Notes: a model not told the origin generated them from the letters alone. DNA of 64,000 nucleotides from Candidatus Aenigmatarchaeota archaeon (GCA_016193585.1 JACPRW010000003.1:129649-193648); one strand, 5' to 3'. Counted from the first letter of the stretch, positions 9,971 through 63,349 are shown. Program-made: numbers and translations.

Positions 9971-10002
9971 CCTTTAAATATATAATTAAACATAAACATA
10001 AC

Positions 10003-10257: not shown

Positions 10258-10643
10258 AAATTCTTGATACGGATATCCTCGTAGGCGTGCTCAGAAAGAA
10301 CGATGAAGCAATAAAAAAATACGAACAAATACGGGACGTAGAAATAACTACAACCATTTTCAATGCACAAGAACTCCTGTTCGGCGCGCTTATTTCTGAC
10401 AACGCCTATGAAAATTTCAGGGCTGCAAAAGGCTTGGTCAACGAACTTGGGGCTTTAAAGTACGACGAAAAAAGCATGGTAGAATCGGTCAGGATTCAGG
10501 TATATCTTGAAAAGACCGGCAGGCACATAGGACTTGTGGATGAGATGACCGCAGGCATATGCCTTGCTCACAATGCACCCATAGTAACCAGAAATACCGT
10601 GCATTTCTCAAGAGTTTCCGGACTGAAGGTTGAGAAATGGTAG
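10254..10643 (+). CDS. vapC: PIN-domain ribonuclease toxin VapC.
   Basis: MKILDTDILV... N-terminus and conserved acidic residues of the PIN domain. Gene pair architecture. Confidence 0.8.
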   Translation: MKILDTDILVGVLRKNDEAIKKYEQIRDVEITTTIFNAQELLFGALISDNAYENFRAAKGLVNELGALKYDEKSMVESVRIQVYLEKTGRHIGLVDEMTAGICLAHNAPIVTRNTVHFSRVSGLKVEKW

Positions 10644-10691
10644 GATGGGTAAAGCTCTGGGCATGGTTCGGATACGGTTGGGCTATTAAAT

Positions 10692-11534: not shown

Positions 11535-11573
11535 GTGTTATGTGTAAAGCTGTAGGTATCGGTTCGAATCAGG

Positions 11574-12362
11574 TTGGGGCTATCAGTACTACAAGGATTC
11601 GGAATGAAATTAATTTCACTAAATATATGGGGCGGGAAACTCTTTGAACCGCTCATTAATTTTGTAGATGGTTGCGCTCACGAGACAAATATCTTTTGCT
11701 TCCAGGAGATGCACCACGTAACAGCGCACGGAACTGTCAATAAAGGTACTACGTCTTTATTCTCAGAAATTTCTGGACACCTTTCCGGATTTCGAGGAAT
11801 TTTCGCCCCCACGAATAAGGTTGAATCTTCAGAAAAAGAAAGAGTTGAGACATGGAATGGGTTAGCTCTTTTTATTCGGAAACCAATTAAGGTAATTTCT
11901 CATGGCGACGTGGTCATTCATAAGCCAGCAGCGACTATTGAAGATCCAGAACACAAATCAATTCCAAGAAACTTGCAGTATGTTATATTCAAGAATGGTG
12001 GAAGGAAGTACCTGCTCTGCCACTTCCACGGTATTTGGTACCCTAAAACAAAAGTTGATACGCCAGAACGGATTGAACAATCTAAAAAAATTAGGAACTT
12101 TTTAGATTCATATCGGTGCAGAAAAATTCTGTGCGGGGATTTCAATCTTTTACCTAAGACAGGGAGCATAGAAATCCTGGAGACGGGGATGAGGAATATG
12201 GTCACTGATTTCAAAATAAAAACAACACGGAACATCCACTACACGAGAGAAGAAAAGCACGCCGATTACGTGTTAGTAACGCCGGATATAAAAGTCAAGG
12301 CGTTTAGCGTCTTGGACGACGTAGTTTCTGACCACCTCCCGTTATTTTTGGAGTTTGAATAA
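11574..12362 (+). CDS. Endonuclease/exonuclease/phosphatase (EEP) family protein.
   Basis: LNIWGG N-terminal motif and C-terminal SDHLP motif typical of the EEP family. Low-GC gene. Confidence 0.75.
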   Translation: MGLSVLQGFGMKLISLNIWGGKLFEPLINFVDGCAHETNIFCFQEMHHVTAHGTVNKGTTSLFSEISGHLSGFRGIFAPTNKVESSEKERVETWNGLALFIRKPIKVISHGDVVIHKPAATIEDPEHKSIPRNLQYVIFKNGGRKYLLCHFHGIWYPKTKVDTPERIEQSKKIRNFLDSYRCRKILCGDFNLLPKTGSIEILETGMRNMVTDFKIKTTRNIHYTREEKHADYVLVTPDIKVKAFSVLDDVVSDHLPLFLEFE

Positions 12363-32732: not shown

Positions 32733-32851
32733 TGGGCGTGACGCGATTCGAACGCGCGACCCCCTGCTGACCTTTTTAGGAAAAAGGTCAATCAAAAACC
32801 TTCTCCCTTCATTAGAAGGCAGATGCTCTATCCAAGCTGAGCTACACGCCC
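32733..32851 (-). tRNA. tRNA-Arg (anticodon UCU) with a 44-nt intron at the canonical 37/38 position.
   Basis: Complete cloverleaf: acceptor gggcgtg / cacgccc, D-arm gctc/gagc, anticodon stem tctgc/gcagg with loop cuUCUaa, T-arm gcgcg-ttcgaat-cgcgt. The intron contains a cctttttcctaaaaagg helix. Confidence 0.8.
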
Positions 32852-42886: not shown

Positions 42887-42990
42887 GCGCCTCCGGCAGG
42901 ACTCGAACCTGCGACCACCTGATTAACAGTTTCACCCAACCTTTTATCGCTGAAAGGTTGACAGGTGCTCTACCTGCTGAGCTACAGAGG
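42887..42990 (-). tRNA. tRNA, probably Asn(GUU), 104 nt, with an about 31-nt intron located at the anticodon stem/loop junction (non-canonical position). It lies 2 nt from tRNA-Phe.
   Basis: Acceptor gcctctg/cggaggc, D-arm gctc/gagc, T-arm gcagg-ttcgagt-cctgc. The only 7-nt loop with U33 obtainable by removing one contiguous segment is cuGUUaa. The intron contains an aaccttt...aaaggtt helix. Confidence 0.6.
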
Positions 42991-43018
42991 CTTCGTTTAG
43001 TTTTATTGAGGAAAGCAT

Positions 43019-48235: not shown

Positions 48236-49321
48236 TCAGTAGAATATTCTCCACACCATGACGCGCGTCGCGAATGTTTCATACCCGTCGAGAACCCCGA
48301 TATGGTGATAGGATACGGAGCGCTGAACTTTTGGAACAGTCTTAAAGGGCGGGTCGAGAAGGAACTGCTCCCCAGAAGCCCACATGATAGACGCTGTGGT
48401 AAGATTGCTGAGAACTTCAGCAGCATTTTCTTCATCCTCATCAGGCGTATAGTGCGCCATCCAGGCGGTCCTGCCCTTGCCTGAAACGGTGATGTTGAGC
48501 TTGAGGTACGAGAACCTGCCGTTGGACGACTCGATGGCGGTCGTTTCGTCGACTGTTATGCAGTTGGCACCGTCGCCGTTGGATTGCGTATTGAATTTCT
48601 TGAAGACAGTATTTGCGTCGAGCCCGGAAATGTTCGCGAAATAATTTCTCACCTTGAACGCGTAAGACGATGGATTTTCCTGCGACTCGGGGAATCGCCC
48701 GTTGCCGTTATTGCCGCCGCAGCCTTGCGGCCTCCAGCTCAGCCCGAACAACGGCCCTATGAAACCGTCTTTCACTTCATTCTCTTTCAGGTCAGCGAGC
48801 ATGAACAGCGTCTTGCCGTTCGCAAGGAAGTTGGACAGGTAGCTCCTGTTGGCCGCGTCAAACTGCCTGTAGCCGAAAAATACGACCACGTCAATGGGCG
48901 CGTAGGCGAGGTTGTCAAGCGAGTCATTGGTCACAACAAGCATAATATTTCTTTTTTTGTAGCCGAATGCTGTGCTGTACAGCATATCCTTTAGTTTCTG
49001 CGTTTCTTCTGTTGTGCAATTGCACCCGATGCGTATCACCGGATTCGGGATACCGCGAACTTCCACTGAAAAATCCACCGTTTCAGGGAGCATCCTTTTG
49101 AGCCTCGTGTGCAGCAGTGTTGCATTATTCAGAAGAATCGCCTGCTGTACTGTCCCGTTTATGTACAGCGATGCCATCGCATCGTTGACCTGAGTCTGGG
49201 TCAATACATCGCCCCAGAACGAGTACCTTTCGATGATAAAAAAATAGGAAAGCGATGTCAGCAGTATAAGCGACGCTATAATTGCCTCAAGAATCCTCAC
49301 GAATCCCTTCCGTTGTTTCAT
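48236..49321 (-). CDS. Pilin-like protein with a class III (type IV prepilin-like) signal peptide (KG|FVRILEAIIASLIL).
   Basis: N-terminal K-G cleavage motif followed by a hydrophobic helix with Glu at +6. Sits in a pilus gene cluster. Confidence 0.6.
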   Translation of the reverse strand: MKQRKGFVRILEAIIASLILLTSLSYFFIIERYSFWGDVLTQTQVNDAMASLYINGTVQQAILLNNATLLHTRLKRMLPETVDFSVEVRGIPNPVIRIGCNCTTEETQKLKDMLYSTAFGYKKRNIMLVVTNDSLDNLAYAPIDVVVFFGYRQFDAANRSYLSNFLANGKTLFMLADLKENEVKDGFIGPLFGLSWRPQGCGGNNGNGRFPESQENPSSYAFKVRNYFANISGLDANTVFKKFNTQSNGDGANCITVDETTAIESSNGRFSYLKLNITVSGKGRTAWMAHYTPDEDEENAAEVLSNLTTASIMWASGEQFLLDPPFKTVPKVQRSVSYHHIGVLDGYETFATRVMVWRIFY

Positions 49322-49821
49322 GCAATCAGCGTGACGTTTATTTCAAGCACCGTGAAGCCCCCGGCTTCTTGGAGCGTGGCGAAGCGGTGGGTGACGAATT
49401 CGGGACGGGATTTACTCTGTTCAAACGGAGGACAGGTCAGGACGGCGCTGTTTTCCCCCGAATCGGTTATGTAAATCGAGACGTCCTCCGACAGACCGAG
49501 GATGCTTTTAAATGCCGCATAGTCCCCGTTGCATATCGCCTGCAGAGAGGTTATTTTGTCGATGTCAAGGATATAGTGCTGCCCCGAAGAAAGGCCGATG
49601 CGCCGCACCTCGCCTAGTGGTTTCGTTTCCCAGTTTTTCGGCTCGCCCTCATCAAAGATGAGCAGTTCCGCTAACTGGTAGCTTTTTGACTTTATGTCAT
49701 CGGTAAGTGCGCGCTCCTCGAGTGAAGGGAACTGGCGCCCGATAGTGATGACGGTGAACGATATGGTAACAAGGAAAACAAGGACAGAGATGACAAATTC
49801 TATGTCGACTACGCCCTTCAT
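49318..49821 (-). CDS. Pilin-like protein with a class III signal peptide (KG|VVDIEFVISVLVFL).
   Basis: As above. Confidence 0.6.
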   Translation of the reverse strand: MKGVVDIEFVISVLVFLVTISFTVITIGRQFPSLEERALTDDIKSKSYQLAELLIFDEGEPKNWETKPLGEVRRIGLSSGQHYILDIDKITSLQAICNGDYAAFKSILGLSEDVSIYITDSGENSAVLTCPPFEQSKSRPEFVTHRFATLQEAGGFTVLEINVTLIA

Positions 49822-49832
49822 TGGAAAGCCCT

Positions 49833-50771
49833 CTATACGATGCCAGTCCGGACAGTTATCAGGAATATCGACACGCCGGTGATGAGAAGTATAGCGCTAT
49901 GCTTCACGCCCGCAGCAATCGAATCCGATCCTATCTGGCCCGCGATGAGGCCGGTAAAGAATCCCTGTACGATAATCATGATGAAGAAAAGCGACTTATA
50001 GTAAGCAGACGGGTCAGTTTTCTCCCCGAAGTCCATGAGCGCAGAAACAGAGAAGAAAGTATTGCAGCCGACGCACGCGCCACTTGCGCTGCTTATGCAT
50101 TCAAAGCAGGGGTTTGAATTGGTCCCTTTGACAAGTCCTATGCCGCTTTCAGACTGCGTCTGGACGAGGGGAATCAGGAATTTGATGAGTGCTATGGTGA
50201 TGCCAAGGAAGATGAAGAAAATGGCGTACATCATGAGCACCTGCTGATTCATGAGCGTGTTTTTTTCCTCCTGAACGTCGCGCAGCATTTCTATGTTGCC
50301 CGCGAGCGACTCCATGGTATCCTCGATATTGCCCCCCGACTTGTTCGATTCAAGTATGACCATCACGGACCGGGAAATTATCCTGCTATTTTTCATCCGT
50401 ACGATAAAGTTGTTGAGGACTTTTTCAAGAGGAACGTTCCAGCTCAGCTGGTTGTCCATTTTTTTTACCTCATGCGTCAGCGAGCCGTAATCCGAGCGCG
50501 CGGCAAGCTGTATGCTCTGGAGGATGCTGAGGCCCGCGCGCTGGGATTCCGCCAGGTCGCGGAGGAAATTGGGGAATTCGCTTTCGAACGCACGCACGCG
50601 TTTGAACTCGAAAAACTTATAGATGCTGTATGGCGCGGTGAGGATGATTATTGCTATGAAAATGAGGTTGGTCGAAAGCGCGAACGATCCGGAGAACGTC
50701 ACGGCAATGCCGATAAGCAGCATGCTTACTACAAAAGAGCCGATAAGAATATTCCGCTCGTTCAGCTCCAT
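49833..50771 (-). CDS. TadC/FlaJ-like polytopic membrane protein (type IV pilus / archaellum platform).
   Basis: GspF/TadC-type domain with paired TM helices. Adjacent to a paralog and the ATPase. Confidence 0.75.
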   Translation of the reverse strand: MELNERNILIGSFVVSMLLIGIAVTFSGSFALSTNLIFIAIIILTAPYSIYKFFEFKRVRAFESEFPNFLRDLAESQRAGLSILQSIQLAARSDYGSLTHEVKKMDNQLSWNVPLEKVLNNFIVRMKNSRIISRSVMVILESNKSGGNIEDTMESLAGNIEMLRDVQEEKNTLMNQQVLMMYAIFFIFLGITIALIKFLIPLVQTQSESGIGLVKGTNSNPCFECISSASGACVGCNTFFSVSALMDFGEKTDPSAYYKSLFFIMIIVQGFFTGLIAGQIGSDSIAAGVKHSAILLITGVSIFLITVRTGIV

Positions 50772-50848
50772 GTTACTTTATTATGCTCCTGCCTATTTTA
50801 GCTTTGTCAGGCAAAGCGCCCCAATCGGCCCAAATCAGCGGGCAGTAG

Positions 50849-51709
50849 CTACTCGAGAGGAGAGATGGATTTGATGATGAGGATAAAGCCTATGGAAAGC
50901 AGCGGAAGGAGGATGAAAACGACGAAGCTCTGGACAAATATCGTTCCGAGCCCCCCCGAAATCGCCGAAATGATGGACGAAAGGACTATGAAAAATATGG
51001 ACCCGGTGATTATGAGTGTCAGGTAAATTTCGACAAAAAGCGAAAGGTCCTGTGAGTACTTCCGTATCCTTCTTCGGTAGTCGTTCATGAGTTCGTCGCC
51101 CTTGTTCTTCAGGTAGATGGTGAGGTCCCCGCCTGAGGAAATGACGGTATTTATTCCCCACAACAGCTCCCTGAATTCAGTCGACGGGGTGCGCTTGGAT
51201 TGCTTCTTGACTGCCTCGGAAAACGTCATGCCGAAGACCTCGACGTCCCTCGCAATGTTCCCCGCTTCCTTGGCGAGTTCGCCGTACTCCTCGAACTGCG
51301 CCAGCGTCTTGAAAAGCACTATCGGCGGGACTTTTGCGCTCGAGATGGTCGAGAGGTACGAAACTGAAAAGGGCAGCATCTTCTTGATTTTGCTTTCCCT
51401 CGTCTTTGCCTTGGTGGCGGGATAAGAATAGAAGAGGAAAAAAATGAGGCCCGATAGTGCCAGAGAAAGCGTCAGCCCAAGGACGATGGCTATGACAGGC
51501 GGCGCCAACAAGCCGAAAATAAACGAAAGTCCTATCGTCTCGAGGAAGAATGTCCAGGCGGTCGTGAAAACGGCAGTGGCCAGCCATTCTTCAAGCGTAT
51601 AATTGAGGTTGGCACGATGAAGATCGTCGCGTATGTCAAGAAAATACGGTTTGATGAGTTTCACGATGTCCTCGAAAAGCCTGTACGACAGATTGACGTA
51701 ACTTATCAT
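50849..51709 (-). CDS. TadB/FlaJ-like polytopic membrane protein (second platform gene).
   Basis: Paralogous to 49833-50771. Overlaps the ATPase gene by 4 nt. Confidence 0.75.
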   Translation of the reverse strand: MISYVNLSYRLFEDIVKLIKPYFLDIRDDLHRANLNYTLEEWLATAVFTTAWTFFLETIGLSFIFGLLAPPVIAIVLGLTLSLALSGLIFFLFYSYPATKAKTRESKIKKMLPFSVSYLSTISSAKVPPIVLFKTLAQFEEYGELAKEAGNIARDVEVFGMTFSEAVKKQSKRTPSTEFRELLWGINTVISSGGDLTIYLKNKGDELMNDYRRRIRKYSQDLSLFVEIYLTLIITGSIFFIVLSSIISAISGGLGTIFVQSFVVFILLPLLSIGFILIIKSISPLE

Positions 51710-53517
51710 ATGGCTTCGATCCTTCCAAGCAGGTAATCAGGGGAGGTGTAGAAGAGATTTATCACAGATGCAATCTTCCGGTAATCGGTGATGTTGTTGA
51801 GAACCGTCCATTCAAGCACCTTTGCGCGCTTTTTGAGCTCCTCCTGGACGGCATAGTCGTCAAGCCCGCTCGCCTCGGCTATCTTCCTCAAAAGCACGCT
51901 TTTGTTCGTGTTCTTGTACACGTCCATCTTCGGGTCCCAAGAAAAGACCTCGTCGACGATAGGCGCGTTGAGCTTGTCGTTAAAGCCTATGACCTCGACC
52001 GAGCTGTTCACGCGTCGCAGGTATTTTTTCCCCTGTTTTATCCTCTTCAGGAATATAATCACGTCGAGGTTCTGCATCAGGTTTGGCGGCAGGCTTATGG
52101 GAGGCGACGTGAGCCTGTCGACGAGTTTCGGGAAATTTTCGGCGTGGATGGTGGAGAGGCCGGGATGGCCGACGGCCATCTGCTGGAAAAGCACATACGC
52201 TTCCTTACCACGAACCTCGCCGACGATGATGTAGTCAGGCCGCTGCCTGAGCGATTCCCTCAGAAGCTCGAACATGTCAACCTTGCCCTCCTCTGCTATC
52301 GGGGTCCGTGCCACCTCCGGCACCCAGTGCGAGTGCGGGAGCCTTAGTTCTGCGGTATCCTCTATCGAAATGATTTTCATCTGCGGCTTGATGAAGAGGG
52401 ACAGCACATTGAGTAATGACGTCTTCCCCGTTGCTGTGCCGCCGGAGATGAGGAACGAGGAGCCGTGCTCAATGAGCATCCAGTAATACGCCATCATGCG
52501 GATGTCGCAGGTCCCGAACTTGACGATGTCAAGGGGAGTCAGCGGCTTGTCGGTGAACATCCTGATGGTGTAATTGGACCCGCGCCGCGCTATGTCACTC
52601 CCAAGCGTTGCCTGGACACGCGAGCCGTCGGGGAGAGTGCCGTCAAGGAGCGGCTTTGAGATGGATATTGTCCTGCCGCACCGCTCGGCAATCTTATTCA
52701 CGAAAGAATCGAGCTCGTCGCCGTTGGTGAAGACGACGTTCGTCCGCAGCGACCCGAGGCGCGGATCACGGTGGTACACGTAAATGTTTATGTTCACGCC
52801 GTCACACGAAATATCCTCGATGCGATTGTCGTTCAGTATAGGCTCTATCTTTTCGAGGCCGACGAAATCCCTGAATATGTAGTACCGAAGGATTTCCCGT
52901 TTCTCGTCGTCGAAACGTGAGTGGAAATAATCAAGTGCCTTCTCAAAAACGGCGGCGATGTAGTTTATTGCGTCCCTCTTTCGTACATGGGAAAAATTTA
53001 TGTCGACTTTTTCCTGGATGTACTCCTTTATCTCATGGACGAGCATCTTCATGCGCGCGTCAAGCGGCGGCTCGACAACATCGTATACAACCTGGTTCGT
53101 GGACTGGTCGTAGTGGATATACGCGTACGCAAAAATTCGCTCCCCCTCCTTCGGATTTTGCGGTATAAGCGGATAGGTAATGCTTATGTTCCTCAGCTCA
53201 AGCAGCTCCTTCGTCACCGCCTCAAGGTCCTTTGTTTTGAGCCTCTCCACTTCGGTTTCTATCGGCGGCACCTTGATGCCAGTTGCGATTTTAATTTGAG
53301 TCTCCTCATGGCCACTGCTCTCCTTCTGTGCGCCGCCGGAAAATCCTGTTCCTTGGGCAATGACATTGCCGCCGATGGGCATCGAGGCCGCTATATAGCC
53401 TGTTGTTATGCCGTCTGCCTTCGGCTTCGGATTGAATTTGAACCGTATCTTCTTTGTTCCGGTGTTCGTAGCCAGGCGTACGATGAGGTATTTTTCCTTT
53501 GCCTGTAGCTCTGCCAT
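51706..53517 (-). CDS. FlaI/TadA/VirB11-family secretion ATPase, with an about 130-aa N-terminal extension.
   Basis: Walker A GGTATGKTS, Asp and His boxes typical of type II/IV secretion ATPases. Confidence 0.9.
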   Translation of the reverse strand: MAELQAKEKYLIVRLATNTGTKKIRFKFNPKPKADGITTGYIAASMPIGGNVIAQGTGFSGGAQKESSGHEETQIKIATGIKVPPIETEVERLKTKDLEAVTKELLELRNISITYPLIPQNPKEGERIFAYAYIHYDQSTNQVVYDVVEPPLDARMKMLVHEIKEYIQEKVDINFSHVRKRDAINYIAAVFEKALDYFHSRFDDEKREILRYYIFRDFVGLEKIEPILNDNRIEDISCDGVNINIYVYHRDPRLGSLRTNVVFTNGDELDSFVNKIAERCGRTISISKPLLDGTLPDGSRVQATLGSDIARRGSNYTIRMFTDKPLTPLDIVKFGTCDIRMMAYYWMLIEHGSSFLISGGTATGKTSLLNVLSLFIKPQMKIISIEDTAELRLPHSHWVPEVARTPIAEEGKVDMFELLRESLRQRPDYIIVGEVRGKEAYVLFQQMAVGHPGLSTIHAENFPKLVDRLTSPPISLPPNLMQNLDVIIFLKRIKQGKKYLRRVNSSVEVIGFNDKLNAPIVDEVFSWDPKMDVYKNTNKSVLLRKIAEASGLDDYAVQEELKKRAKVLEWTVLNNITDYRKIASVINLFYTSPDYLLGRIEAI

Positions 53518-53519
53518 TG

Positions 53520-53966
53520 CTATCCCCTGAGCAGGTCTATTGTGCCGCCAGCAGACCTGACCTGAACGTATCGTGTTGCGCTGTGCACGCTGCCTCTTAA
53601 ATTATAACTTTCCTCCAGTTTAAAAATTTCCCTTGTGAAACTCACCGATGCCGTGCTTATGTTGAGTAAGCAGCGTTCCCCACGTTCGCACACTCTCCCG
53701 TTGGCATCGTGGATGCGCATGAGGTACGGCTGTTCCGAAACCGTCTCCGGCACCGAAAAGCTCACGGTCATGTTGGTTGCATTCGTCTTTCCTACGATGA
53801 CGATTGCAGAAGCGATGGCATCGGAAACCAATGAAAGCTGGCTTCTCGTCGCCTTTTCCTTAAGCGTATTCTCCAGCAGAGCAAAGTTGAGAATGACAAA
53901 ACTGGTTATGGCAAGGCCGATGGCGAATATGAGGATCTCATTTACAATAATATACTGGCCCTTCAT
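53520..53966 (-). CDS. Pilin-like protein with a class III signal peptide (KG|QYIIVNEILIFAIGL).
   Basis: As above. Confidence 0.6.
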   Translation of the reverse strand: MKGQYIIVNEILIFAIGLAITSFVILNFALLENTLKEKATRSQLSLVSDAIASAIVIVGKTNATNMTVSFSVPETVSEQPYLMRIHDANGRVCERGERCLLNISTASVSFTREIFKLEESYNLRGSVHSATRYVQVRSAGGTIDLLRG

Positions 53967-54003
53967 ATGTACATTATAATGCTGCCACTATATATACAGT
54001 GGC

Positions 54004-54594
54004 TTATTCTATCCCAATCCTGACAAAAGTCCGCGTGACATCGCGCCCGCTTGCGGTTGTCGTTGCAGACCCGGCGCTCTCGATGATGATGCTGCGCTGT
54101 TCGGAGCCCGTTGCATTTCCGCCGATAAGCTCGATGCGGTATGACAGGATGCCAGGCGTGTCGAGCGTTATGAACGTGAGCCGGTAGTCATGCTCCATGA
54201 CGGTATCCACCTGCTTCGTTTCGACGCAGAGGCTCGAAGGCTCGTCAGTTCCCCATATCCCCCGCGTCATGGTGCAGCTGTTCCTGCTGAGCGAGATAAG
54301 GCCAGGCACGTAGATGCTTCCCTTGGTATTTATAGCCAGCCTCACGCTGTTGCTGCGGTTGTCGAATATCACGGTACCCGGAACAGATATCTGCAGCCTG
54401 TCCCTACCCCCATGATTGGCGATATATTTTATCTTGTCGTTGAGTTCATGGGCAAACCGCTCTGAATTTTCAAGCGTGGCGATGTCACGGTTTTTTTCGA
54501 TGAGTGGCAGTCCCCAGAAGTATACCGAGCCCACGACGCCAAGCATGACGCCGGTAATAAGCACGGCAGAAAATGCCTGAATGCCTTTTCGCAT
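54004..54594 (-). CDS. Pilin-like protein with a class III signal peptide (RKG|IQAFSAVLITGVML). Start placed at M34.
   Basis: As above. Confidence 0.55.
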   Translation of the reverse strand: MRKGIQAFSAVLITGVMLGVVGSVYFWGLPLIEKNRDIATLENSERFAHELNDKIKYIANHGGRDRLQISVPGTVIFDNRSNSVRLAINTKGSIYVPGLISLSRNSCTMTRGIWGTDEPSSLCVETKQVDTVMEHDYRLTFITLDTPGILSYRIELIGGNATGSEQRSIIIESAGSATTTASGRDVTRTFVRIGIE

Positions 54595-54619
54595 AATATC
54601 ATATCTGTTTTGCGATATA

Positions 54620-54713
54620 TATAGTGAATTGCGTTGCTTATGACCTATGAAAACGCAATTCGCTGGATGAGAAATGCGCAGCTCCAAGGGCATATGCTGC
54701 GCATTTCTCCATA
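54620..54713 (+). repeat. R3 family repeat, copy 3 (stems conserved, loops diverged).
   Basis: Compensatory pattern relative to copies 1 and 2. Confidence 0.7.
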
Positions 54714-57995: not shown

Positions 57996-58139
57996 GGGCC
58001 GGTAGCTCAGTGGTAGAGCACCAGTCTTATATGACAGCCTGGTTTAAGCAGGAACAAGCCCGGCTATCGTGGTTAACTGGCGACATGTTCCGCATCGCGG
58101 AGATGCCAGAAGTCGTGAGTTCGATCCTCATCCGGCCCA
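57996..58139 (+). tRNA. tRNA gene spanning 144 nt, with about 68 nt of intervening sequence that is probably two introns. Anticodon tentatively UAU (Ile) if the first intron is at 37/38.
   Basis: Canonical 5' part (gggccgg-ta-gctc-agtggta-gagc-a) and 3' part (gtgag-ttcgatc-ctcat-ccggccc-a). Anticodon stem ccagt pairs with actgg 44 nt downstream. A further about 29 nt separates the stem from the variable loop. Confidence 0.65.
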
Positions 58140-58177: not shown

Positions 58178-58522
58178 TCACGGAGGGCACCCGCAGGCCT
58201 GTTTGCAGTCGCTGGCACTTGTACCTTCCCCTGCATGCCTGGCCCAGCCGAACTTCAGTTCGCATGCCCGTGCAAGTGTATTTCCATCAGTCCCGTCACT
58301 GTCAGGGTCAAAGTTCGCTAGTGTTATGCCGCTCGGCGCTGTACCACACTTGTGAATATAGAACAGCTGGTTGCACCCGTCAGAAAACGCCTTTTCGACG
58401 GTAAGTGTATTCGAGCCTTTAGACAAATTACTGGAGAACAGGAAGCCGATTGTGGCGAACACAAGAACGGCCAGCAGCAGTATGACGGTTGTTTCTATCG
58501 ATAGGGAGATGCCCTTTGCCAT
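58178..58522 (-). CDS. Small pilin-like protein with a class III signal peptide (KG|ISLSIETTVILLLAV) and a Cys-containing globular domain.
   Basis: N-terminal motif shared with the two Cys-rich paralogs downstream (x-x-L-x-x-E-T). Confidence 0.55.
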   Translation of the reverse strand: MAKGISLSIETTVILLLAVLVFATIGFLFSSNLSKGSNTLTVEKAFSDGCNQLFYIHKCGTAPSGITLANFDPDSDGTDGNTLARACELKFGWARHAGEGTSASDCKQACGCPP

Positions 58523-58567: not shown

Positions 58568-58882
58568 CTACTTCTTCAGCACGACTTCGATGGTCGAGAC
58601 GTTGAGCTTTTCCTTGTTCTCATTCTCTATTTGTTCAGTGCCTATCCTGATAGCAGCGACTTTCGCGTCCTGCACGAACTTGTTCCGCACGATTTCCGCC
58701 ACGTTGACAGCGGTGGAAATCGCGTTGCCCCGCGCCTTCAGGTGGACCTCGTTCTGGCCTTCGCTGAACTGCGTCACGACTGCAAGAACATATGACATGC
58801 TTGGCTTCTTGCCCACGAAGACCACGTTGTCGCCTGCCCTTTCTGCCATTTGTGTCATCCCTGCTGTTTCTATTCGTAGCAA
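58568..58882 (-). CDS. albA: Chromatin protein Alba.
   Basis: Alba family full-length match ([20 protein letters not shown]...[14 protein letters not shown]). Confidence 0.9.
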
Positions 58883-59065: not shown

Positions 59066-59545
59066 TCACCTGCAGCATTTGTAGGTGCTATCGAGTGGAG
59101 GTTTTTGACAGTCAGGAGTGCCTTGCGTCAGCTCCCCGCCTGGACATGACTTTCCGCAGCTGGTACCGCCGAGATCCTCTCTGCATCTGGGCATGCCGTT
59201 GCACTGGTCGCCGCAGCACTGCCAGATGCACTGCTGGCTTGCTGCCTGGCCGGTGGTGCAGCCCGGGTAGCCGCCTTCGCGCTGCTTGAGGCCGCCGCAT
59301 GCGTTCGCTATGCGGAGCCTGATGTCGTTGAGGTCGCTACGTTCGGTGCAGCCGGGCTCGTGCTGCGTATACGCGCTGCAGGCGGTTACCTTTTCCCGGG
59401 TGAGGCGCACCGTGTCGCCGAACGGGTTGGCGTTGCCCGTGAACACGAAGGCAAGAGAAGCGAGAACAATAAGGGCAAGAACAACGAGAACGATGGTCTC
59501 AACAGACAGCGCGACGCCTTTACGTTTCACATCTATTTGCAGCAT
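59066..59545 (-). CDS. Cysteine-rich pilin-like protein (class III signal KRKG|VALSVETIVLVV; about 15 Cys in a roughly 110-aa ectodomain).
   Basis: Signal motif plus a conserved Cys spacing shared with 59533-60066. Confidence 0.55.
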   Translation of the reverse strand: MLQIDVKRKGVALSVETIVLVVLALIVLASLAFVFTGNANPFGDTVRLTREKVTACSAYTQHEPGCTERSDLNDIRLRIANACGGLKQREGGYPGCTTGQAASQQCIWQCCGDQCNGMPRCREDLGGTSCGKSCPGGELTQGTPDCQKPPLDSTYKCCR

Positions 59546-60066
59546 TTGTAACCCCCCGTTGTCGACGATGTCTGGCACGACGGGCTGCTCGATTGTATTT
59601 CACGCTTGCCCGCAGGGCAGTTTGCCTCGCACGTGCCGCCGATTTCCCGGCAGCTTGCCGTTCCCCTGCAGTAGGTGCTGCAGCACTGCCACACGCACGC
59701 CAGTGATGCAGTGCCGGTGCAGTCCGAATAGCCTCCCTCAAGTGCGCGGAGCGCCTTGCAGGCAACTGCCACACGGTTGCGCGCGTCATTGACCTCACTG
59801 GTGCTCGCAGGGCTGCCCAAGTCAATGCTGCATTCCGGGTCCTTCTGCGTATACGCGCTGCAGGCGATCGCCCGTTCACGCTCCTTGGCAACTTTGTCGC
59901 CAGCCGGTGGCACGTTGCCCGAAAACAGGAAGAGCAGCGCGGCGAGGACGATGATGGCGAGCACCATGAACGTCATCGTCTCGAGCGGCAGTGCCGCGCC
60001 CTTAAAGGACGAGGGCCCGGGTTCTCTTCGACATCTACTGATTACCATAGCACGCATCAGATTCAC
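59533..60066 (-). CDS. Cysteine-rich pilin-like protein, paralog (class III signal FKG|AALPLETMTFMV).
   Basis: Aligns with 59066-59545 (ACSAYTQ..P.C ... EGGY..CT ... WQCC ... CRE.GGT.C ... YKCC). Confidence 0.55.
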   Translation of the reverse strand: MNLMRAMVISRCRREPGPSSFKGAALPLETMTFMVLAIIVLAALLFLFSGNVPPAGDKVAKERERAIACSAYTQKDPECSIDLGSPASTSEVNDARNRVAVACKALRALEGGYSDCTGTASLACVWQCCSTYCRGTASCREIGGTCEANCPAGKREIQSSSPSCQTSSTTGGYKCCK

Positions 60067-60088: not shown

Positions 60089-63000
60089 TTATGCGCAGCC
60101 GCCTCCTTGTAGAGGCCCGCAGTACGTGTTTGAATCGCATGCGCCGTTGCTGCAGCAGTTCATGTGCACGCCAGCAGGGCAACCGGGGTCTGTGCAGTCC
60201 TGCGAGCACCAGTCGTTATAGGTGCAGCCCTCAGGACCAGTACAGCCGCCAGATGGCGGTGGAGGCGGCGGCGGGGTGGATGACCTGCAGGTGCTGCCAG
60301 AGCAGCCATTGCTGCAGTCTCTAACTTTTTCAGATTGTGGCGTGGAATCTTGGTAACACCCGCCTCGTGGATCAGAGCAGCCTATTGTATAACACGTTCT
60401 GTCGTGCCAGATATTGCCGTCCGCGGCATTGCAGTACTCAGAGCCCCATGGAGCGCAGCCGCTTATGAGCCCGGGACAGTTTTGAACAGTGCATACCGAG
60501 CTGCATACTGCCGACGTTGTCGCGCATTTCCCCGGCTCTATGCCGTCGCAGAGCGCATCAGCGCCGCACTGCGAGGCGCACGCGCCTCCATGGTACGCCT
60601 GCGCAAGGGCAGCATCGCTTGTGGGGTCAATGCCGTTTGCGCAGGATTGCGGCGCATCCTGCCTGCACTCCCATTTCCTCTTTGTCGGAGCGTCACAGTA
60701 AAACGAGCAGCCGCTGTTTTTTGCGTCGTCCCTGGTTGGCGTGCCGCTGCATTCCTTCCGGTAATCGCAAATCTCGTTCCGGTCCTTGTCCGTATACGCG
60801 TCGCCGAAGCAGTACGTCCTGCTGTTGCACGTGTTCGTTCCGCCGCGCCATGTCGGGGCAGGCGTGTCCGGCCAGTTCCATTTCTCGCAGCACTGCTTGC
60901 CCAGCGCCTCCCGCGGATTGATGCCGTCGTCATGCTCCTTGCAGAATATCGGGTTGCACGGTGGCGTGTCACATGCAGTGACGCACTGGAAGTCGCCGAG
61001 ATTGGTGTCCTGCTGCTTCTTGTAGGTGTCCTCCATACCAGGAATGGCACGCTCAGCGCTCGGTGACTGGCATGCATAGAACTTCCCGCCGACGCACACC
61101 GTATCCTTCTCGGTCAGCCAGCTGAACTGCTCGCTCGTATACTCCCTACAGTCAAGCACGCCAAGGTAATCCTTCACGCTGACGTCGAGCTGGAACGGCT
61201 GCTTGACAAACCTGCTGTTCGCTTCATCGTGATAATAGTAGCCCGGTCCGCTGGCTGCTGCTGGCGGCGGCGGAGGCGGCATGCCACCCGAAGAGCAGAG
61301 CCCCAGCGTGATTTCCGGATTTGCGACGGGCTGTTTTGACTGACCGCTCTTCTGGACTTGGACCTGGATGTGCACATGACCTTTGCCGCAGTTTGGTGCA
61401 GTGCTGGGGCAATCAATATTCGGATACAATCTGCCTGCAACGGCCCCGGACCAGGCTCTTGCGTTCTCTCTTCCTGACGAGAAATCACCCTCGTTCCTGA
61501 GGTGCGTCAGGTAGATTTCGTAGGTGTCCGTTCCTGCAGTTGTCCTGAACGTCTTGCCGTAGCCGAGGCCGCTGGCGCCGCCTTCTATCTGCACGAACGT
61601 CCATTCGACGGCATTCCCCTTTATGGTCGGCAGATAGACCTCGTAATTGTCAGTGCCGCCAGGGCCCTGAACGTCAATGCCGGTTACGGTTCTCGGGAAT
61701 TGCGTGCACCAGCTCGGCAGCGGCGTTCCATAGCCTTTGCCGCAATGCTCGCACGTCGCATGGCCAGAATTGAGCGAGCCGCAGCTGATGGTCGGGCTCT
61801 GCATCGGGCACGACATTCCCGAAGCAATGCTTTGAAGATACGTGTAACAGCCGTACACCTTGTCGGCGTACGCGCTGTCATGATTATAGCACCACGCCTG
61901 ATTCCATGCGACAGGACGCGCCGGGTCGCGCACGCTCGTCGCGCACGCCTTGAGGTAGGCTGCAGCAGCGGTCACCGAATCGGCTAACGTCTGGATGTCT
62001 GCGGTGCCGTCGCCGTTTCCATCCCTTCCGTAGCCTCCGGCTTGCTGGATGCGGTTCGGATTGGTATCAACAGGATAGGTCTGCTGGTTGCTCGACACGC
62101 AGTTGTAACCTTGCAGCACCGGGTTCGTGCTCCCGCTCCATGTGCACGGCATGAACTGGAACGGACCCTTCGCGCCTTTCGGCGAAGTGCCCCACGGTCC
62201 GTCAGGGTTCGGCCACGGCCGGCTGAACTCTTCGGCAGCATTGTCTGTTTTGCACGATGATGTCGGGCATGCATTCCCTGCATGCTCGCCGCACTTGAAG
62301 ATTGCTGCAATGAGCGCAGCAGGCGTCCCTTCCTGGTTCGACGCTGTCACGAAGATGGTATTGTAGGGCGCAGGAATGCCGGTGATGCTCCCCCCGCCGC
62401 TGCCTGGCGGCGTTGATGTCCCGCTCCCGTCTCTGAATGTTCCGGTGAGGTCGTATGCGAGCACCAGCCCTGCCTGGGGCGGCAGTATGCCGCTCTCGGT
62501 TGTCGGAACTTTCACGTGCAGGGCATTGATGACGAACGCCGAGGTGATGCTGTCCGTCTGCAGCCAGCTCTTGATTTCGTTTGCTTTCGAGAGCAGGTGC
62601 GTCTCTTTCTGGGTGCGGTACGTTTCATGAGTCATGGCATTGTTGATATCACCCGGCGACGCAGGATAATCATGCAGCCTGCCTGCGGCTGTACTGGAGA
62701 ACTCGGTTGCAACGCCGACGAGCCGCCAGCCCCCTGCGACGAGCTTCTTGAAAGGGGTGAAGATGACGTTGTCGTTCCGCGTTTCTGCATCAACGTGCGT
62801 ACCCAGATAGCTCGCCTGCAGGCGCTGCGTGACCAATGCAGTAACGCGGTCATAGGCAGGCCAGAAATTATTCGGCCTTGCGTCAAGCCGTATGCCGGTT
62901 ATGCCGAGCCGCACGTCGTTGACAGCCGGGTCGGACGGTATGGACAGATACCCTTGCATGATGCCGAGCAGGTAGTCGGAAACATGCTTGTTCTGCGGCA

Positions 63001-63349
63001 GGCATATTTTCGGGTTTGCAGTATCGGCGTTACACTTCCCCGCCTCCGGGACGATGATGCGCTTCTGTTCGGTCGGGTCGGTGAGGTACCAGTACCGCTC
63101 TCCGACACCCGTATAACCTGTCTTGAATATCGTCTGTATGGTGGACACGTACCACGTCATGCCGAGCGAGCGATTGGCAAGGTAGAACGTGTTTTTCGCC
63201 CGCAGCAAACCTGCTTCCTCGATGTTGATTTTGTACGTCTTGATGTTCGTTCCGAAGACTGCTATGCCGAAGATGAGGCCTATCAGTACGATGCTGATGC
63301 CGTAGAACAGGAGCTGGGCCGATGGGCCGCCGAATCCCTTAGCCGCCAA
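60089..63349 (-). CDS. Giant (1086 aa) membrane-anchored, Cys-rich extracellular protein with a lytic transglycosylase (SLT/lysozyme-like) domain and poly-Pro linkers.
   Basis: N-terminal TM anchor. A central segment AAEEFSRPW...SPKGAKGPFQFMPCTW...CYNHDSAY matches SLT motifs I-III (ES-x-F, S-x-x-GA-x-GLMQ-x-MP-x-T, AYN). The C-terminal 350 aa contain more than 60 Cys and PPPPPPP linkers. Confidence 0.65.
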   Translation of the reverse strand: MAAKGFGGPSAQLLFYGISIVLIGLIFGIAVFGTNIKTYKINIEEAGLLRAKNTFYLANRSLGMTWYVSTIQTIFKTGYTGVGERYWYLTDPTEQKRIIVPEAGKCNADTANPKICLPQNKHVSDYLLGIMQGYLSIPSDPAVNDVRLGITGIRLDARPNNFWPAYDRVTALVTQRLQASYLGTHVDAETRNDNVIFTPFKKLVAGGWRLVGVATEFSSTAAGRLHDYPASPGDINNAMTHETYRTQKETHLLSKANEIKSWLQTDSITSAFVINALHVKVPTTESGILPPQAGLVLAYDLTGTFRDGSGTSTPPGSGGGSITGIPAPYNTIFVTASNQEGTPAALIAAIFKCGEHAGNACPTSSCKTDNAAEEFSRPWPNPDGPWGTSPKGAKGPFQFMPCTWSGSTNPVLQGYNCVSSNQQTYPVDTNPNRIQQAGGYGRDGNGDGTADIQTLADSVTAAAAYLKACATSVRDPARPVAWNQAWCYNHDSAYADKVYGCYTYLQSIASGMSCPMQSPTISCGSLNSGHATCEHCGKGYGTPLPSWCTQFPRTVTGIDVQGPGGTDNYEVYLPTIKGNAVEWTFVQIEGGASGLGYGKTFRTTAGTDTYEIYLTHLRNEGDFSSGRENARAWSGAVAGRLYPNIDCPSTAPNCGKGHVHIQVQVQKSGQSKQPVANPEITLGLCSSGGMPPPPPPAAASGPGYYYHDEANSRFVKQPFQLDVSVKDYLGVLDCREYTSEQFSWLTEKDTVCVGGKFYACQSPSAERAIPGMEDTYKKQQDTNLGDFQCVTACDTPPCNPIFCKEHDDGINPREALGKQCCEKWNWPDTPAPTWRGGTNTCNSRTYCFGDAYTDKDRNEICDYRKECSGTPTRDDAKNSGCSFYCDAPTKRKWECRQDAPQSCANGIDPTSDAALAQAYHGGACASQCGADALCDGIEPGKCATTSAVCSSVCTVQNCPGLISGCAPWGSEYCNAADGNIWHDRTCYTIGCSDPRGGCYQDSTPQSEKVRDCSNGCSGSTCRSSTPPPPPPPSGGCTGPEGCTYNDWCSQDCTDPGCPAGVHMNCCSNGACDSNTYCGPLQGGGCA

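What the first reader, a model, noticed from the sequence alone, without database searches (positions are those of the whole stretch)
60089..63349. Lytic-transglycosylase (SLT) motif set in a giant Cys-rich surface protein of an archaeon
The 1086-aa protein carries a segment that matches the three family-1 lytic transglycosylase motifs. Motif I: EEFSRP fits ES-x-F-x-P. Motif II: SPKGAKGPFQFMPCTW fits S-x-x-G-A-x-G-L-M-Q-x-M-P-x-T, with 10 of 16 positions identical to bacterial Slt. Motif III: CYNHDSAY fits AYNxG. The archaeal marker genes in this window imply a host with no murein, so there is no endogenous substrate for a muramidase. The protein is membrane-anchored and extracellular, very Cys-rich (disulfide-stabilised), and sits next to Cys-rich pilin-like genes and 6 kb from a Tad-like pilus machine. 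In bacteria, dedicated SLTs accompany pili and secretion systems to breach peptidoglycan. Here the domain may instead act on the wall of a bacterial partner or prey (contact-dependent attack or attachment), or on pseudomurein-like polymers.
Basis: partly seen in the sequence, partly recalled or inferred. Interest (0 to 1): 0.8.

Follow-up and report, generated by a model that had tools for sequence, protein, structure and literature searches.

The report
Pilin-like archaeal protein carrying bacterial-wall-cutting enzymes
A DPANN archaeon with no bacterial-type cell wall encodes a pilus-subunit-like surface protein carrying two enzymes that cut bacterial cell walls, and this is one member of a larger archaeal family that swaps such enzymes in and out, which suggests these tiny archaea physically engage bacteria.

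Summary
The 1086-aa ORF (60089-63349, minus strand) is real and archaeal; it is identical to a hypothetical protein of a Candidatus Aenigmarchaeota MAG.

- It belongs to family 3 (MltB/Slt35, Pfam SLT_2), not family 1.
- Motifs II and III are homologous.
- "Motif I" (EEFSRP) lies in a lineage-specific insertion. The conserved catalytic Glu is E355 (KCGEH).
- A 33-aa insertion hides the domain from Pfam. Deleting it in silico raises SLT_2 from 14 to 37 bits.

- Residues 511-690 are a divergent M23/LytM endopeptidase.

About 85 representative proteins share this pilin module and a conserved downstream C1 module. Their inserted cargo is nearly always a peptidoglycan hydrolase (M23, SLT, amidases, CHAP, VanY, glucosaminidase, NlpC/P60). 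The gene sits in a conserved cassette with pilin-like genes, preceded by a T2SSF platform protein (plus a T2SSE ATPase in one locus) where upstream flank is available.

Extracellular murein hydrolases in DPANN archaea are already published. The pilin-borne, cargo-swapping architecture was not found in the searched literature.

The parts
60089..63349 (-). Whole gene: 1086-aa modular pilin-like peptidoglycan-hydrolase protein (TTG start; its start overlaps the upstream gene by 11 nt)
63251..63349 (-). Residues 1-33: class-III (prepilin-type) signal-like N-terminus 'MAAKG|FGG...' followed by the only hydrophobic segment (about 10-32)
   Evidence: 66 of 75 family members have [KR][GA] 5-14 residues before a single TM; K4 is invariant in A1 and A6
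62420..63349 (-). Residues 1-310: N-module with a pilin fold (helix 8-80, then an alpha/beta globular domain); contains the most conserved family motif KNTFYLxNRSLGMTWxVSTxQ
61820..62374 (-). Residues 326-510: family-3-type lytic transglycosylase domain (SLT_2 core)
62285..62287 (-). Codon of E355, the inferred catalytic Glu, at the C-terminal end of helix 344-355 in the invariant AAIFKCGEH
62216..62233 (-).
62138..62185 (-). SPKGAKGPFQFMPCTW (389-404): genuine LT motif II; S389, G392, A393, G395, Q398, F399, P401, T403 and W404 are nearly invariant
62039..62137 (-). Residues 405-437: 33-aa insertion that hides the domain from Pfam; shared with many Bacillota-type relatives
61979..62023 (-). 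Residues 443-457, DGNGDGTADIQTLAD: EF-hand-like loop typical of MltB/Slt35 (D443, N445, D447, G448, D451 and D457 nearly invariant)
61868..61891 (-). CYNHDSAY (487-494): LT motif III equivalent (Y488, N489, H490 and Y494 nearly invariant)
61280..61819 (-). Residues 511-690 ('X'): divergent M23/LytM-fold endopeptidase domain. D559, H616, H658 and H660 are conserved; the canonical first His is V555; H535 in CEHC is invariant and may substitute for it
60860..61264 (-). Residues 696-830 ('C1'): conserved beta-rich module (YYYHDE..NRF..RPF.L.V..D.L.VLDC) that follows the cargo in all family members; fold not identified
   Evidence: (pLDDT 85-98 for 701-810)
60092..60859 (-). Residues 831-1086 ('C2'): Cys-rich, Pro/Gly-rich tail, not confidently modelled; its terminal Cys-rich unit resembles the N-terminal unit of P0005
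63339..64000 (-). 3' part of the upstream cassette gene 'up299' (299 aa in full; runs off the window). Three more cassette genes (294, 129 and 425 aa) lie beyond the window end
59533..60048 (-). Pilin-like gene (171 aa; 'KG|AALPLET' followed by a TM; Cys-rich)
59066..59578 (-). Pilin-like gene (170 aa; 'RKG|VALSVET' followed by a TM; Cys-rich), a paralogue of the previous gene
58178..58522 (-). Pilin-like gene (114 aa; 'MAKG|ISLSIET' followed by a TM)
48236..54693 (-). Type-IV-filament machinery cluster: T2SSE ATPase (51706-53517), two T2SSF genes (50849-51709 and 49833-50771), DUF7289/DUF7266 proteins and two further single-TM proteins

Best explanation
The gene encodes a modular, minor-pilin-like surface protein of an Aenigmarchaeota (DPANN) archaeon. 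Its N-terminus has a prepilin-type (class III) signal and a pilin fold closest to the tip pseudopilin GspK. Between this pilin module and a conserved C1 module sits a two-enzyme cargo of bacterial (Bacillota-like) type. The first enzyme is a compact family-3 lytic transglycosylase (inferred catalytic Glu E355, EF-hand-like loop 443-457), which would cut the MurNAc-GlcNAc glycan. The second is a divergent M23/LytM metallopeptidase (D559, H616, H658, H660), which would cut peptide cross-links.

The archaeon makes no murein, so the substrate is the wall of a bacterium. The protein is most likely exported, processed and held at the membrane or in a type-IV filament. That filament would be encoded by the surrounding conserved cassette (four single-TM proteins, this protein, then pilins) and assembled by a T2SSE/T2SSF machine. 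In this position the enzymes can locally open the sacculus of a bacterial partner or prey on contact, for attachment, penetration or feeding.

Shown here: the domain identities, the conserved residues, the pilin-like fold in a predicted model, the family-wide peptidoglycan-hydrolase cargo and the conserved operon. Inferred: signal cleavage, incorporation into a filament, enzymatic activity, and a living bacterial target.
For: LT domain. The profile of four paralogues hits MltB/Slt35/SltB3 structures at E 2.8e-6 to 1.9e-4. SLT_2 scores 37.3 bits (E 2.4e-9) after deleting insertion 405-437. Homologues P0002, P0004, P0005 and P0156 carry SLT_2 above threshold. The Glu at column 354/355, motif II, motif III and the loop are nearly invariant in 60 relatives. 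The AF2 model has pLDDT 85.4 and matches Slt35 with probability 0.84-0.95.

Substrate. Cargo in 66 members is M23 (33), SLT (26), Amidase_2 (4), SLT_2 (3), CHAP (2), Amidase_3, VanY, glucosaminidase, M15_4 and NlpC/P60.

Operon. The cassette up425-up129-up294-up299-scaffold-pilin(s) is conserved in 7 independent loci. It is preceded by a T2SSF protein in all 3 loci with enough flank and by a T2SSE ATPase in L005.

Organism. All named members and loci are archaeal, from Aenigmarchaeota. Named bacterial relatives of the cargo are Bacillota SLT-M23 proteins.
Against: The native sequence fails every curated profile threshold. The SLT_2 match covers only about 50 of 292 model positions, so this is a minimal core and not a full MltB.

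The pilin assignment rests on a predicted model and on a sequence pattern. No Pfam or NCBIfam pilin model matches, and no prepilin peptidase is in the window. In this genome the ATPase cluster is about 5.4 kb (ATPase gene about 6.6 kb) away and separated by housekeeping genes.

I could not read model coordinates, so the active-site geometry is unchecked. There is no expression, activity or partner data. The absence of murein synthesis in this MAG is assumed from taxonomy and was not checked.
Confidence: 0.6

Rival explanations
1. Digestive or scavenging enzyme. The protein is a cell-anchored exo-enzyme that degrades free peptidoglycan debris (necromass) so that a metabolically reduced archaeon can take up amino sugars and peptides. 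It would involve no specific contact with living bacteria and no role in a filament.
For: The evidence for genuine extracellular PG hydrolases applies equally here. Archaeal class-III signals are also used on non-filament surface proteins such as Sulfolobus sugar-binding proteins (established knowledge). The X domain also occurs fused to a GH5 cellulase or mannosidase in another Aenigmarchaeota protein, P0009, which suggests a general polymer-degrading repertoire.
Against: The gene is embedded in a conserved cassette with pilin-like genes and a T2SSF platform protein, and its N-module resembles tip pseudopilins. No sugar or peptide transporter genes are seen next to it in any locus. Cargo-less scaffold members exist (P0017, P0028, P0047, P0054, P0065), so the scaffold has a function of its own.
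Confidence: 0.22
2. Adhesin only. One or both 'enzyme' domains are catalytically dead and serve as peptidoglycan-binding modules that tether the archaeon or its pilus to bacterial walls.
Against: The LT retains its Glu and all core motifs. The X family keeps D559, H616, H658 and H660 invariant, plus an invariant H535 that could replace the lost ligand; degenerate LytM domains usually lose several of these (established knowledge). Other family members carry canonical, high-scoring catalytic domains (M23 1.9e-31, Amidase_3 7e-42, VanY 1.6e-36).
Confidence: 0.1
3. Self-directed remodelling. As with bacterial VirB1, EtgA or FlgJ, the hydrolases open the organism's own wall polymer (murein-like or pseudomurein-like) so that the filament can pass through.
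Against: The organism is an Aenigmarchaeota archaeon, a group not known to make murein or pseudomurein (established knowledge; PMC12352652 reports that almost no archaeal PGHs come from the pseudomurein-making classes). The window contains no wall-synthesis genes. Cargo types such as VanY and the MurNAc-L-Ala amidases have no substrate in pseudomurein. Rapid cargo swapping between close relatives fits a variable external target better than a fixed self wall.
Confidence: 0.04
4. Coincidental motifs or misassembly. The resemblance is chance within Gly/Pro/Ser-rich sequence, or the gene is bacterial or viral DNA mis-binned into an archaeal contig.
For: The native Pfam score is sub-threshold. GC of the last 8 kb (0.56-0.59) is above the window mean.
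Against: Motif II has a chance expectation of 3.5e-6. The profile, deletion and fold evidence all support a real domain. The gene is contiguous with Alba, a thermosome and tRNAs on the same contig, and the same arrangement was recovered independently in Logan assemblies of several runs. The same cassette next to Alba occurs in six other archaeal loci.
Confidence: 0.02

Closest known systems
[quoted passage not shown] 2021, fam00969 in Pace-/Woesearchaeota, PMC8204110; Woesearchaeota 'large lytic murein transglycosylase', Vigneron et al. 2022, PMC9723730)
   Same: A DPANN archaeon; a large, extracellular, membrane-anchored protein; a bacterial-type LT domain; the proposed role of binding or degrading bacterial walls of hosts or prey.
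   Different: Those reports concern Pace-/Woesearchaeota and GH23/SLT annotations, whereas this protein is from Aenigmarchaeota with an SLT_2-type core that curated profiles miss. The passages I retrieved from those papers by keyword search mention no pilin module, no M23 partner, no cargo-swapping scaffold and no pilus-operon context. Whether the two groups are sequence-related was not tested.
Archaeal peptidoglycan hydrolases used against bacteria (Strock et al. 2025, PLoS Biol, PMC12352652)
   Same: Archaea encode secreted PGHs, including M23 enzymes. The distribution is patchy, domains are shuffled and the origin is bacterial. Nanoarchaeota (DPANN) are prominent. Killing of a bacterium was shown experimentally for two haloarchaeal M23 enzymes.
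   Different: That survey required a recognised cell-wall-binding domain plus a catalytic Pfam domain, so this protein would not have been captured (no Pfam hit). Secretion there was by Sec/Tat or possibly contractile injection systems. In the section I read and a word search for 'pili', pilin-type signals and pilus operons do not appear.
E. coli Slt35/MltB and Pseudomonas SltB3 (family 3 lytic transglycosylases, Pfam SLT_2, PDB 1qus/1d0k/1ltm/5anz)
   Same: The GAxGxxQFxPST core, the EF-hand-like loop and downstream helix, the YN[HG] motif, a catalytic Glu at a helix C-terminus, and a fold match.
   Different: Only the core (about 180 aa) is present, and the alpha and beta domains of Slt35 are missing. 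There are extra insertions at 357-378 and 405-437 and several Cys. The protein is archaeal and the domain is fused inside a pilin-like scaffold.
Bacillota SLT-M23 two-domain hydrolases ('peptidoglycan DD-metalloendopeptidase family protein' of Ammonifex and Bacillus; compare B. subtilis CwlP, from memory)
   Same: The same domain order (SLT then M23), the same insertion after QFMPxTW, and the same loop.
   Different: The bacterial proteins are 350-400 aa and stand alone, with a canonical HxxxD in M23. Here the M23 is replaced by, or has diverged into, the X variant with a Cys/His-rich N-terminal extension, and the cassette is embedded in a 1086-aa archaeal protein.
Modular type IV pilins (S. 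sanguinis PilB/PilC; Raynaud et al. 2021, PMC8179133) and the tip pseudopilin GspK
   Different: Those examples are bacterial, with adhesin, lectin or unknown modules. That paper does not contain the words peptidoglycan, hydrolase or archaea. Here the carrier is archaeal, the cargo is a set of murein hydrolases, and it lies between the pilin module and a conserved C1 module.
Specialised LTs of bacterial secretion and pilus systems (VirB1, EtgA, FlgJ, PrgK)
   Same: An LT and/or LytM domain is genetically coupled to a trans-envelope filament machine.
   Different: Those enzymes open the producer's own sacculus. This producer has none, so the direction of action must be outward.

Membership tests
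Family 3 lytic transglycosylase (Pfam SLT_2 PF13406; MltB/Slt35) | Significant profile match to the SLT_2 model or to solved family members | tested here: met
   The native sequence is sub-threshold (10.4-14.2 bits). It scores 37.3 bits (E 2.4e-9; cut-off 24.3) after deleting insertion 405-437. The paralogue profile hits 7qvd, SltB3 and Slt35 at E 2.8e-6 to 1.9e-4. The close homologue P0005 scores 34.8 bits.
Family 3 lytic transglycosylase (Pfam SLT_2 PF13406; MltB/Slt35) | Single catalytic Glu at the C-terminal end of a helix upstream of the GxxQ motif | tested here: met
   E355 lies in the invariant AAIFKCGEH, and a Glu is present at column 354/355 in essentially all 60 relatives that cover it. 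Predicted helix 344-355 ends at E355. The 3-D position in the cleft could not be inspected.
Family 3 lytic transglycosylase (Pfam SLT_2 PF13406; MltB/Slt35) | EF-hand-like Ca-binding loop after the QFMP motif | tested here: met
   DGNGDGTADIQTLAD (443-457); D443, N/D445, D447, G448, D451 and D457 are nearly invariant. It aligns to the Slt35 loop DFSGDGHINLWDPVD (5 of 15 identical). Metal binding was not tested.
Family 3 lytic transglycosylase (Pfam SLT_2 PF13406; MltB/Slt35) | Full three-domain Slt35 architecture (about 300 aa) | tested here: not met
   Only model positions about 150-198 of 292 are matched, and the domain is about 180 aa. Foldseek TM normalised to Slt35 is 0.32. It is a minimal core, as in the Bacillota SLT-M23 proteins.
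Family 3 lytic transglycosylase (Pfam SLT_2 PF13406; MltB/Slt35) | Formation of 1,6-anhydro-MurNAc products from murein | not testable with these tools
   Requires biochemistry.
   Positions 373-375 are gaps in 45-46 of 60 relatives, and the segment reads SDLS in P0004. A similar string arises in 1.4% of shuffles.
   The native sequence has no hit. With insertions deleted it scores 20.6-21.8 bits against a cut-off of 21.3, always below SLT_2. Some scaffold relatives (P0003, P0006) do carry true family-1 SLT domains.
Peptidase M23 / LytM fold | Fold: beta-sheet groove as in lysostaphin and LytM | tested here: met
Peptidase M23 / LytM fold | HxxxD Zn-binding motif | tested here: not met
   The Asp is present (D559, invariant), but the His position is V555 and is variable in the X family. 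The invariant H535 (CEHC) is a candidate substitute; this is untested.
Peptidase M23 / LytM fold | HxH motif and the catalytic 'HL' histidine | tested here: met
   H658-x-H660 and H616 are invariant in 10 X-domain sequences.
Peptidase M23 / LytM fold | Pfam Peptidase_M23 above threshold | tested here: not met
   The query has no hit. One of 10 X relatives reaches E 7.8e-4.
Type IV pilin / modular minor pilin | Class III signal: short basic leader ending in [KR][GA], then about 20 hydrophobic residues | tested here: met
   The query has MAAKG followed by a hydrophobic stretch at 10-32; 66 of 75 family members show the pattern. K4 is invariant. This is a pattern match only, and no curated pilin model hits.
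Type IV pilin / modular minor pilin | Pilin fold: long N-terminal alpha-helix packed on a beta-sheet | tested here: met
Type IV pilin / modular minor pilin | Genetic linkage to a T2SSE ATPase, a T2SSF platform and other pilins | tested here: met
   Pilin-like genes are adjacent in all loci. T2SSF lies directly upstream of the cassette in L005, L007 and L010, and T2SSE in L005. In the window the ATPase/platform cluster starts about 5.4 kb away.
Type IV pilin / modular minor pilin | Cleavage by a prepilin peptidase and incorporation into a filament | not testable with these tools
   No peptidase A24 gene is in the window. This requires biochemistry or cryo-EM.
DPANN large extracellular LT-domain proteins (fam00969, Castelle 2021) | Sequence membership in that protein family | not tested
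The description (DPANN, large, extracellular, LT domain) fits, but that family was reported for Pace-/Woesearchaeota (PMC8204110).

The most novel reading that the evidence does not exclude
Aenigmarchaeota, and possibly other DPANN archaea, build a type-IV filament whose GspK-like tip subunit carries murein-degrading enzymes. This would be a pilus-borne 'drill' that lets an archaeon breach a bacterial cell wall for cross-domain episymbiosis or predation. The interchangeable cargo (LT, M23, amidases, CHAP, VanY and others) would then reflect host-range adaptation or an arms race with different bacterial wall chemotypes.
Probability: 0.35. Interest if true: 0.85.

Novelty: new variant of a known kind. 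Interest (0 to 1): 0.62.

Why it matters
All cultured DPANN archaea live on other archaea. Whether some exploit bacteria is an open question, and so far it has been argued only from the presence of murein hydrolase genes.

This locus adds a concrete, testable delivery mechanism. The hydrolases are built into a pilin-like carrier inside a conserved type-IV-filament operon. The carrier family accepts nearly every class of peptidoglycan hydrolase, which is hard to explain unless bacterial walls are the target. It yields defined constructs (residues 326-510 and 511-690, with E355Q and H658A/H660A controls), a marker cassette for finding candidate bacteria-associated DPANN in metagenomes, and a pool of unannotated antibacterial enzymes.

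It also shows that surveys based on curated profiles undercount archaeal PGHs, because this protein has no Pfam or NCBIfam hit above threshold.

Tried and rejected
- Pfam on the whole protein gave only a sub-threshold SLT_2 hit, and direct phmmer against PDB gave nothing. A family profile and the deletion control were needed.
- NCBIfam on the protein and nine neighbours gave nothing.
- Pfam on the isolated N, C1 and C2 modules gave nothing meaningful.
- The word-indexed homologue search was unproductive: 6, 4 and 9 hits. The exhaustive representative search was what revealed the family.
With a 5-sequence alignment it returned only 4 loci, so the taxonomic range beyond Aenigmarchaeota and unnamed 'archaeon' MAGs remains unresolved. 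Source names are sparse.
- The first AF2 run, with the scaffold-family alignment, modelled the SLT segment poorly (pLDDT 40-70), so a focused alignment was needed.
- Model coordinates are not readable, so I could not check E355 in the cleft, an H535/D559/H660 metal site, or whether C1 completes the pilin sheet.
- I looked for a prepilin peptidase and wall-synthesis genes among the window ORFs and found none.
- Rejected readings: a family-1 LT; chance motifs; a viral or mobile origin, because synteny with Alba and housekeeping genes is conserved and no integrase or phage genes are present; and a pseudomurein target, given the cargo spectrum.

Full report
**1. What is at the coordinates**

The ORF 60089..63349 on the minus strand encodes 1086 aa, exactly as described. 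It is 100% identical to an NCBI 'hypothetical protein' of a Candidatus Aenigmarchaeota MAG.

The window is archaeal. It carries a thermosome, Topo VI A and B, Alba, NMD3, ribosomal P0, archaeal-type aminoacyl-tRNA synthetases and FtsZ. It also has three long tRNAs that Rfam finds and ARAGORN misses, probably because they contain introns.

The three motif strings are at residues 373-378, 389-404 and 487-494. The protein has 60 Cys, 42 of them after residue 700, and one hydrophobic segment, at the N-terminus.

**2. Is the lytic-transglycosylase signal real?**

On the native sequence the curated tools almost miss it. Pfam gives only SLT_2 at 10.4 bits (E 0.36) over residues 440-468, and phmmer against PDB gives nothing. 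The signal is nevertheless genuine, for five reasons.

- The few close homologues carry SLT_2 or SLT above threshold.
- A profile of the segment from four paralogues hits solved family-3 enzymes: 7qvd at 2.8e-6, and SltB3, Slt35/MltB and SltB at about 1e-4. The match spans GAxGxxQFxPST, DxxGDG and A..YL.
- Deleting the 33-residue insertion 405-437 in silico raises SLT_2 from 14.2 to 37.3 bits (E 2.4e-9; cut-off 24.3).
- Motif II alone is expected 3.5e-6 times per protein of this composition.

**3.

It lies in an insertion (about 357-378) private to the closest relatives. By contrast a Glu at column 354/355 (GEH, or the one-residue-shifted E[TS]) is essentially universal.

In the model, helix 344-355 ends at E355, which is the usual position of the LT catalytic acid. 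The catalytic residue is therefore inferred to be E355.

The domain is of the family-3 (SLT_2) type. It has that family's EF-hand-like loop (D443...D457), which is nearly invariant. However, only the ~180-aa core is present, not the full three-domain Slt35.

**4. A second hydrolase**

Residues 511-690 ('X') conserve D559, H616 and H658-x-H660, plus an N-terminal SCP...C.HC element.

The sequence evidence is weak. SpoIIQ hits at E 0.054, and one of ten relatives hits Peptidase_M23 at 7.8e-4. The profile-profile and fold evidence is strong.

- hhalign against the M23 domains of the same protein family gives 93.5% probability, E 2.3e-7.
- Foldseek gives lysostaphin, LytM and phage LysTt72 at probability 0.99-1.0.

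The canonical first Zn ligand (the H of HxxxD) is V555. Invariant H535 may replace it, but that is inference, so catalytic competence is open.

The named bacterial relatives of the LT segment are Bacillota 'peptidoglycan DD-metalloendopeptidase family' proteins with the same SLT-then-M23 order and the same insertion. The cargo therefore looks like an imported Bacillota-type two-enzyme cassette.

**5. The carrier**

The exhaustive search (370 representatives at E ≤ 1e-3), dissected by module, shows about 85 representatives with the same N-module (1-320) and C1 module (from about 696; motif YYYHDE..NRF..RPF...LDC).

In five of them N abuts C1 directly (P0017, P0028, P0047, P0054, P0065). In the rest, 150-700 aa are inserted between N and C1.

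Pfam on 66 members shows what the inserts are:

| Cargo domain | Members |
|---|---|
| Peptidase_M23 | 33 |
| SLT | 26 |
| Amidase_2 | 4 |
| SLT_2 | 3 |
| CHAP | 2 |
| Glyco_hydro_cc | 2 |
| Amidase_3, VanY, Glucosaminidase, Peptidase_M15_4, NlpC/P60, Lysozyme_like | 1 each |

A few non-PGH families (for example Dicty_CTDC and DUF1287) also scored in single members.

Close relatives differ in cargo. The query has SLT_2+X, P0003 has SLT+Amidase_2, and P0004 has Amidase_2+SLT_2+2×M23. The only property these enzymes share is peptidoglycan as substrate.

**6. The carrier is pilin-like**

- 66 of 75 members have [KR][GA] 5-14 residues before their single hydrophobic segment, typically MKG[VAGS]GTT. 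This is the layout of archaeal class-III (prepilin) signals.
- The full-length AF2 model gives the N-module pLDDT mostly >90, with a 73-residue N-terminal helix followed by an alpha/beta globular domain. C1 is also confident.

GspK is the tip pseudopilin that itself carries an inserted domain (PMC8179133).

No curated pilin model matches and Foldseek found no pilin. The assignment therefore rests on a predicted structure and a sequence pattern.

**7. Genomic context**

The gene's start overlaps the upstream gene by 11 nt. A Logan contig that extends past the window end shows four upstream co-directional genes (425, 129, 294 and 299 aa). All have one N-terminal TM, are Cys-rich and have no family match. 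Downstream are two pilin-like genes, Alba, and a third pilin-like gene.

The cassette up425-up129-up294-up299-scaffold-pilin(s) recurs in seven independent archaeal loci, with Alba adjacent in six of them. In the three loci with enough upstream flank it is preceded by a 667-699-aa T2SSF platform protein, and in L005 also by a T2SSE ATPase.

In the window, the T2SSE/T2SSF cluster at 48.2-54.7 kb starts about 5.4 kb downstream of the gene (the ATPase gene is about 6.6 kb away). It is a different paralogue from those platform proteins. No prepilin peptidase is in the window.

**8. Mechanism**

The best-supported reading is a modular minor-pilin-like protein that presents a glycan-cutting LT and a cross-link-cutting M23-type peptidase outside an archaeon that has no murein. 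The two enzymes would act on a bacterial wall.

- Shown: the domain identities, the conserved residues, the family-wide PGH cargo and the operon conservation.
- Inferred: signal cleavage, filament (tip) incorporation, activity, and a living bacterial target.

Rivals are scavenging of wall debris (0.22), a binding-only adhesin (0.10), self-wall remodelling (0.04) and chance or misassembly (0.02).

Pseudomurein is disfavoured for two reasons. Family cargo includes MurNAc-L-Ala amidases and VanY, whose bonds pseudomurein lacks (established knowledge). Archaeal PGHs are also almost absent from the pseudomurein-making classes (PMC12352652).

**9. Comparison with what is known**

Extracellular murein transglycosylases in DPANN archaea, and the proposal that they attach to or attack bacteria, are published.

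- Castelle 2021 describes large extracellular LT-domain proteins in Pace-/Woesearchaeota and cites earlier observations (PMC8204110).
- Vigneron 2022 describes 'vampiristic' Woesearchaeota (PMC9723730).
- Strock 2025 finds PGHs in about 5% of archaeal genomes and shows experimental killing by haloarchaeal M23 enzymes (PMC12352652).

Modular pilins carrying effector modules are established in bacteria (PMC8179133).

I did not find either of two things in the searched literature. One is a pilin-type carrier for murein hydrolases in archaea. The other is this conserved Aenigmarchaeota cassette with interchangeable PGH cargo.

The finding is therefore a new variant that combines two known kinds, not a new category. 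The literature library is incomplete, since subscription journals are missing, so prior description cannot be excluded.

**10. Verdict**

Interest is 0.62. The basic surprise (an LT in an archaeon) is already in the literature. The carrier architecture, the hidden second enzyme and the operon give a specific, testable mechanism for archaeon-bacterium contact.

Noticed in passing
window 42888-42991 (-), 32733-32851 (-), 57996-58139 (+): Three tRNA genes of 104-144 nt are found by Rfam but missed by ARAGORN. They presumably contain introns, which is consistent with an archaeal genome. The one at 57996-58139 sits between the HTH gene and the pilin/Alba cluster.
   Followed up: no
window 58568-58882 (-); loci L004, L006, L007, L008, L010, L011: An Alba chromatin-protein gene is embedded among the pilin-like genes, and this adjacency is conserved in six other archaeal loci. 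Such stable synteny between a nucleoid protein and a surface-filament cassette is odd.
   Followed up: partly
P0009; locus L011 6001-8163 (GCA_016187385.1): The X (M23-like) domain, 62% identical to the query's, also occurs N-terminal to a GH5 cellulase/mannosidase domain in another Aenigmarchaeota protein. That protein sits in a different cluster of unannotated surface proteins, again near Alba. X is therefore a mobile module and is not restricted to murein-hydrolase partners.
   Followed up: partly
P0017, P0028, P0047, P0054, P0065: These are 'empty' scaffold members in which the pilin-like N-module is followed directly by C1 with no enzyme cargo. The scaffold therefore has a function of its own, and the cargo is an insertion.
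   Followed up: partly
window 60089-60340 (residues about 1033-1086); P0005 residues about 20-80; P0002 C-terminus: A small Cys-rich unit (C..DC.Y.D.CS.C.CP.G..C...C......CC..G.C....C) is shared between the C-terminal tail of the query and P0002 and the N-terminus of P0005, an LT protein without the pilin scaffold. It could be a disulfide- or metal-stabilised binding module. AF2 does not model it (pLDDT about 30).
   Followed up: no
window 9880-12362: There is a low-GC stretch (0.41 at 10-12 kb against about 0.52 elsewhere) next to tRNA-Ser (9880-9972). It contains a PIN-domain gene (10254-10643) with a small upstream partner, an unannotated 280-aa lipoprotein-like ORF, and an endonuclease/exonuclease/phosphatase-family gene. 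It may be a small integrated island with a toxin-antitoxin pair.
   Followed up: no
locus L005 14027-17185 (+): In the P0004 genome a second very large gene (1052 aa, no Pfam hit, no N-module) follows the PGH scaffold and a pilin gene within the same operon. It may be an additional filament-associated giant protein.
   Followed up: no
window 48236-54693 (-) versus L005/L007/L010 upstream regions: The window's T2SSF genes (286 and 312 aa, two separate genes) are not detectably similar (phmmer, E ≤ 1e-4) to the 667-699-aa T2SSF proteins that directly precede the cassette in other genomes. This genome may therefore have a second, cassette-specific platform gene beyond the window end, or it may use a different machine.
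   Followed up: partly
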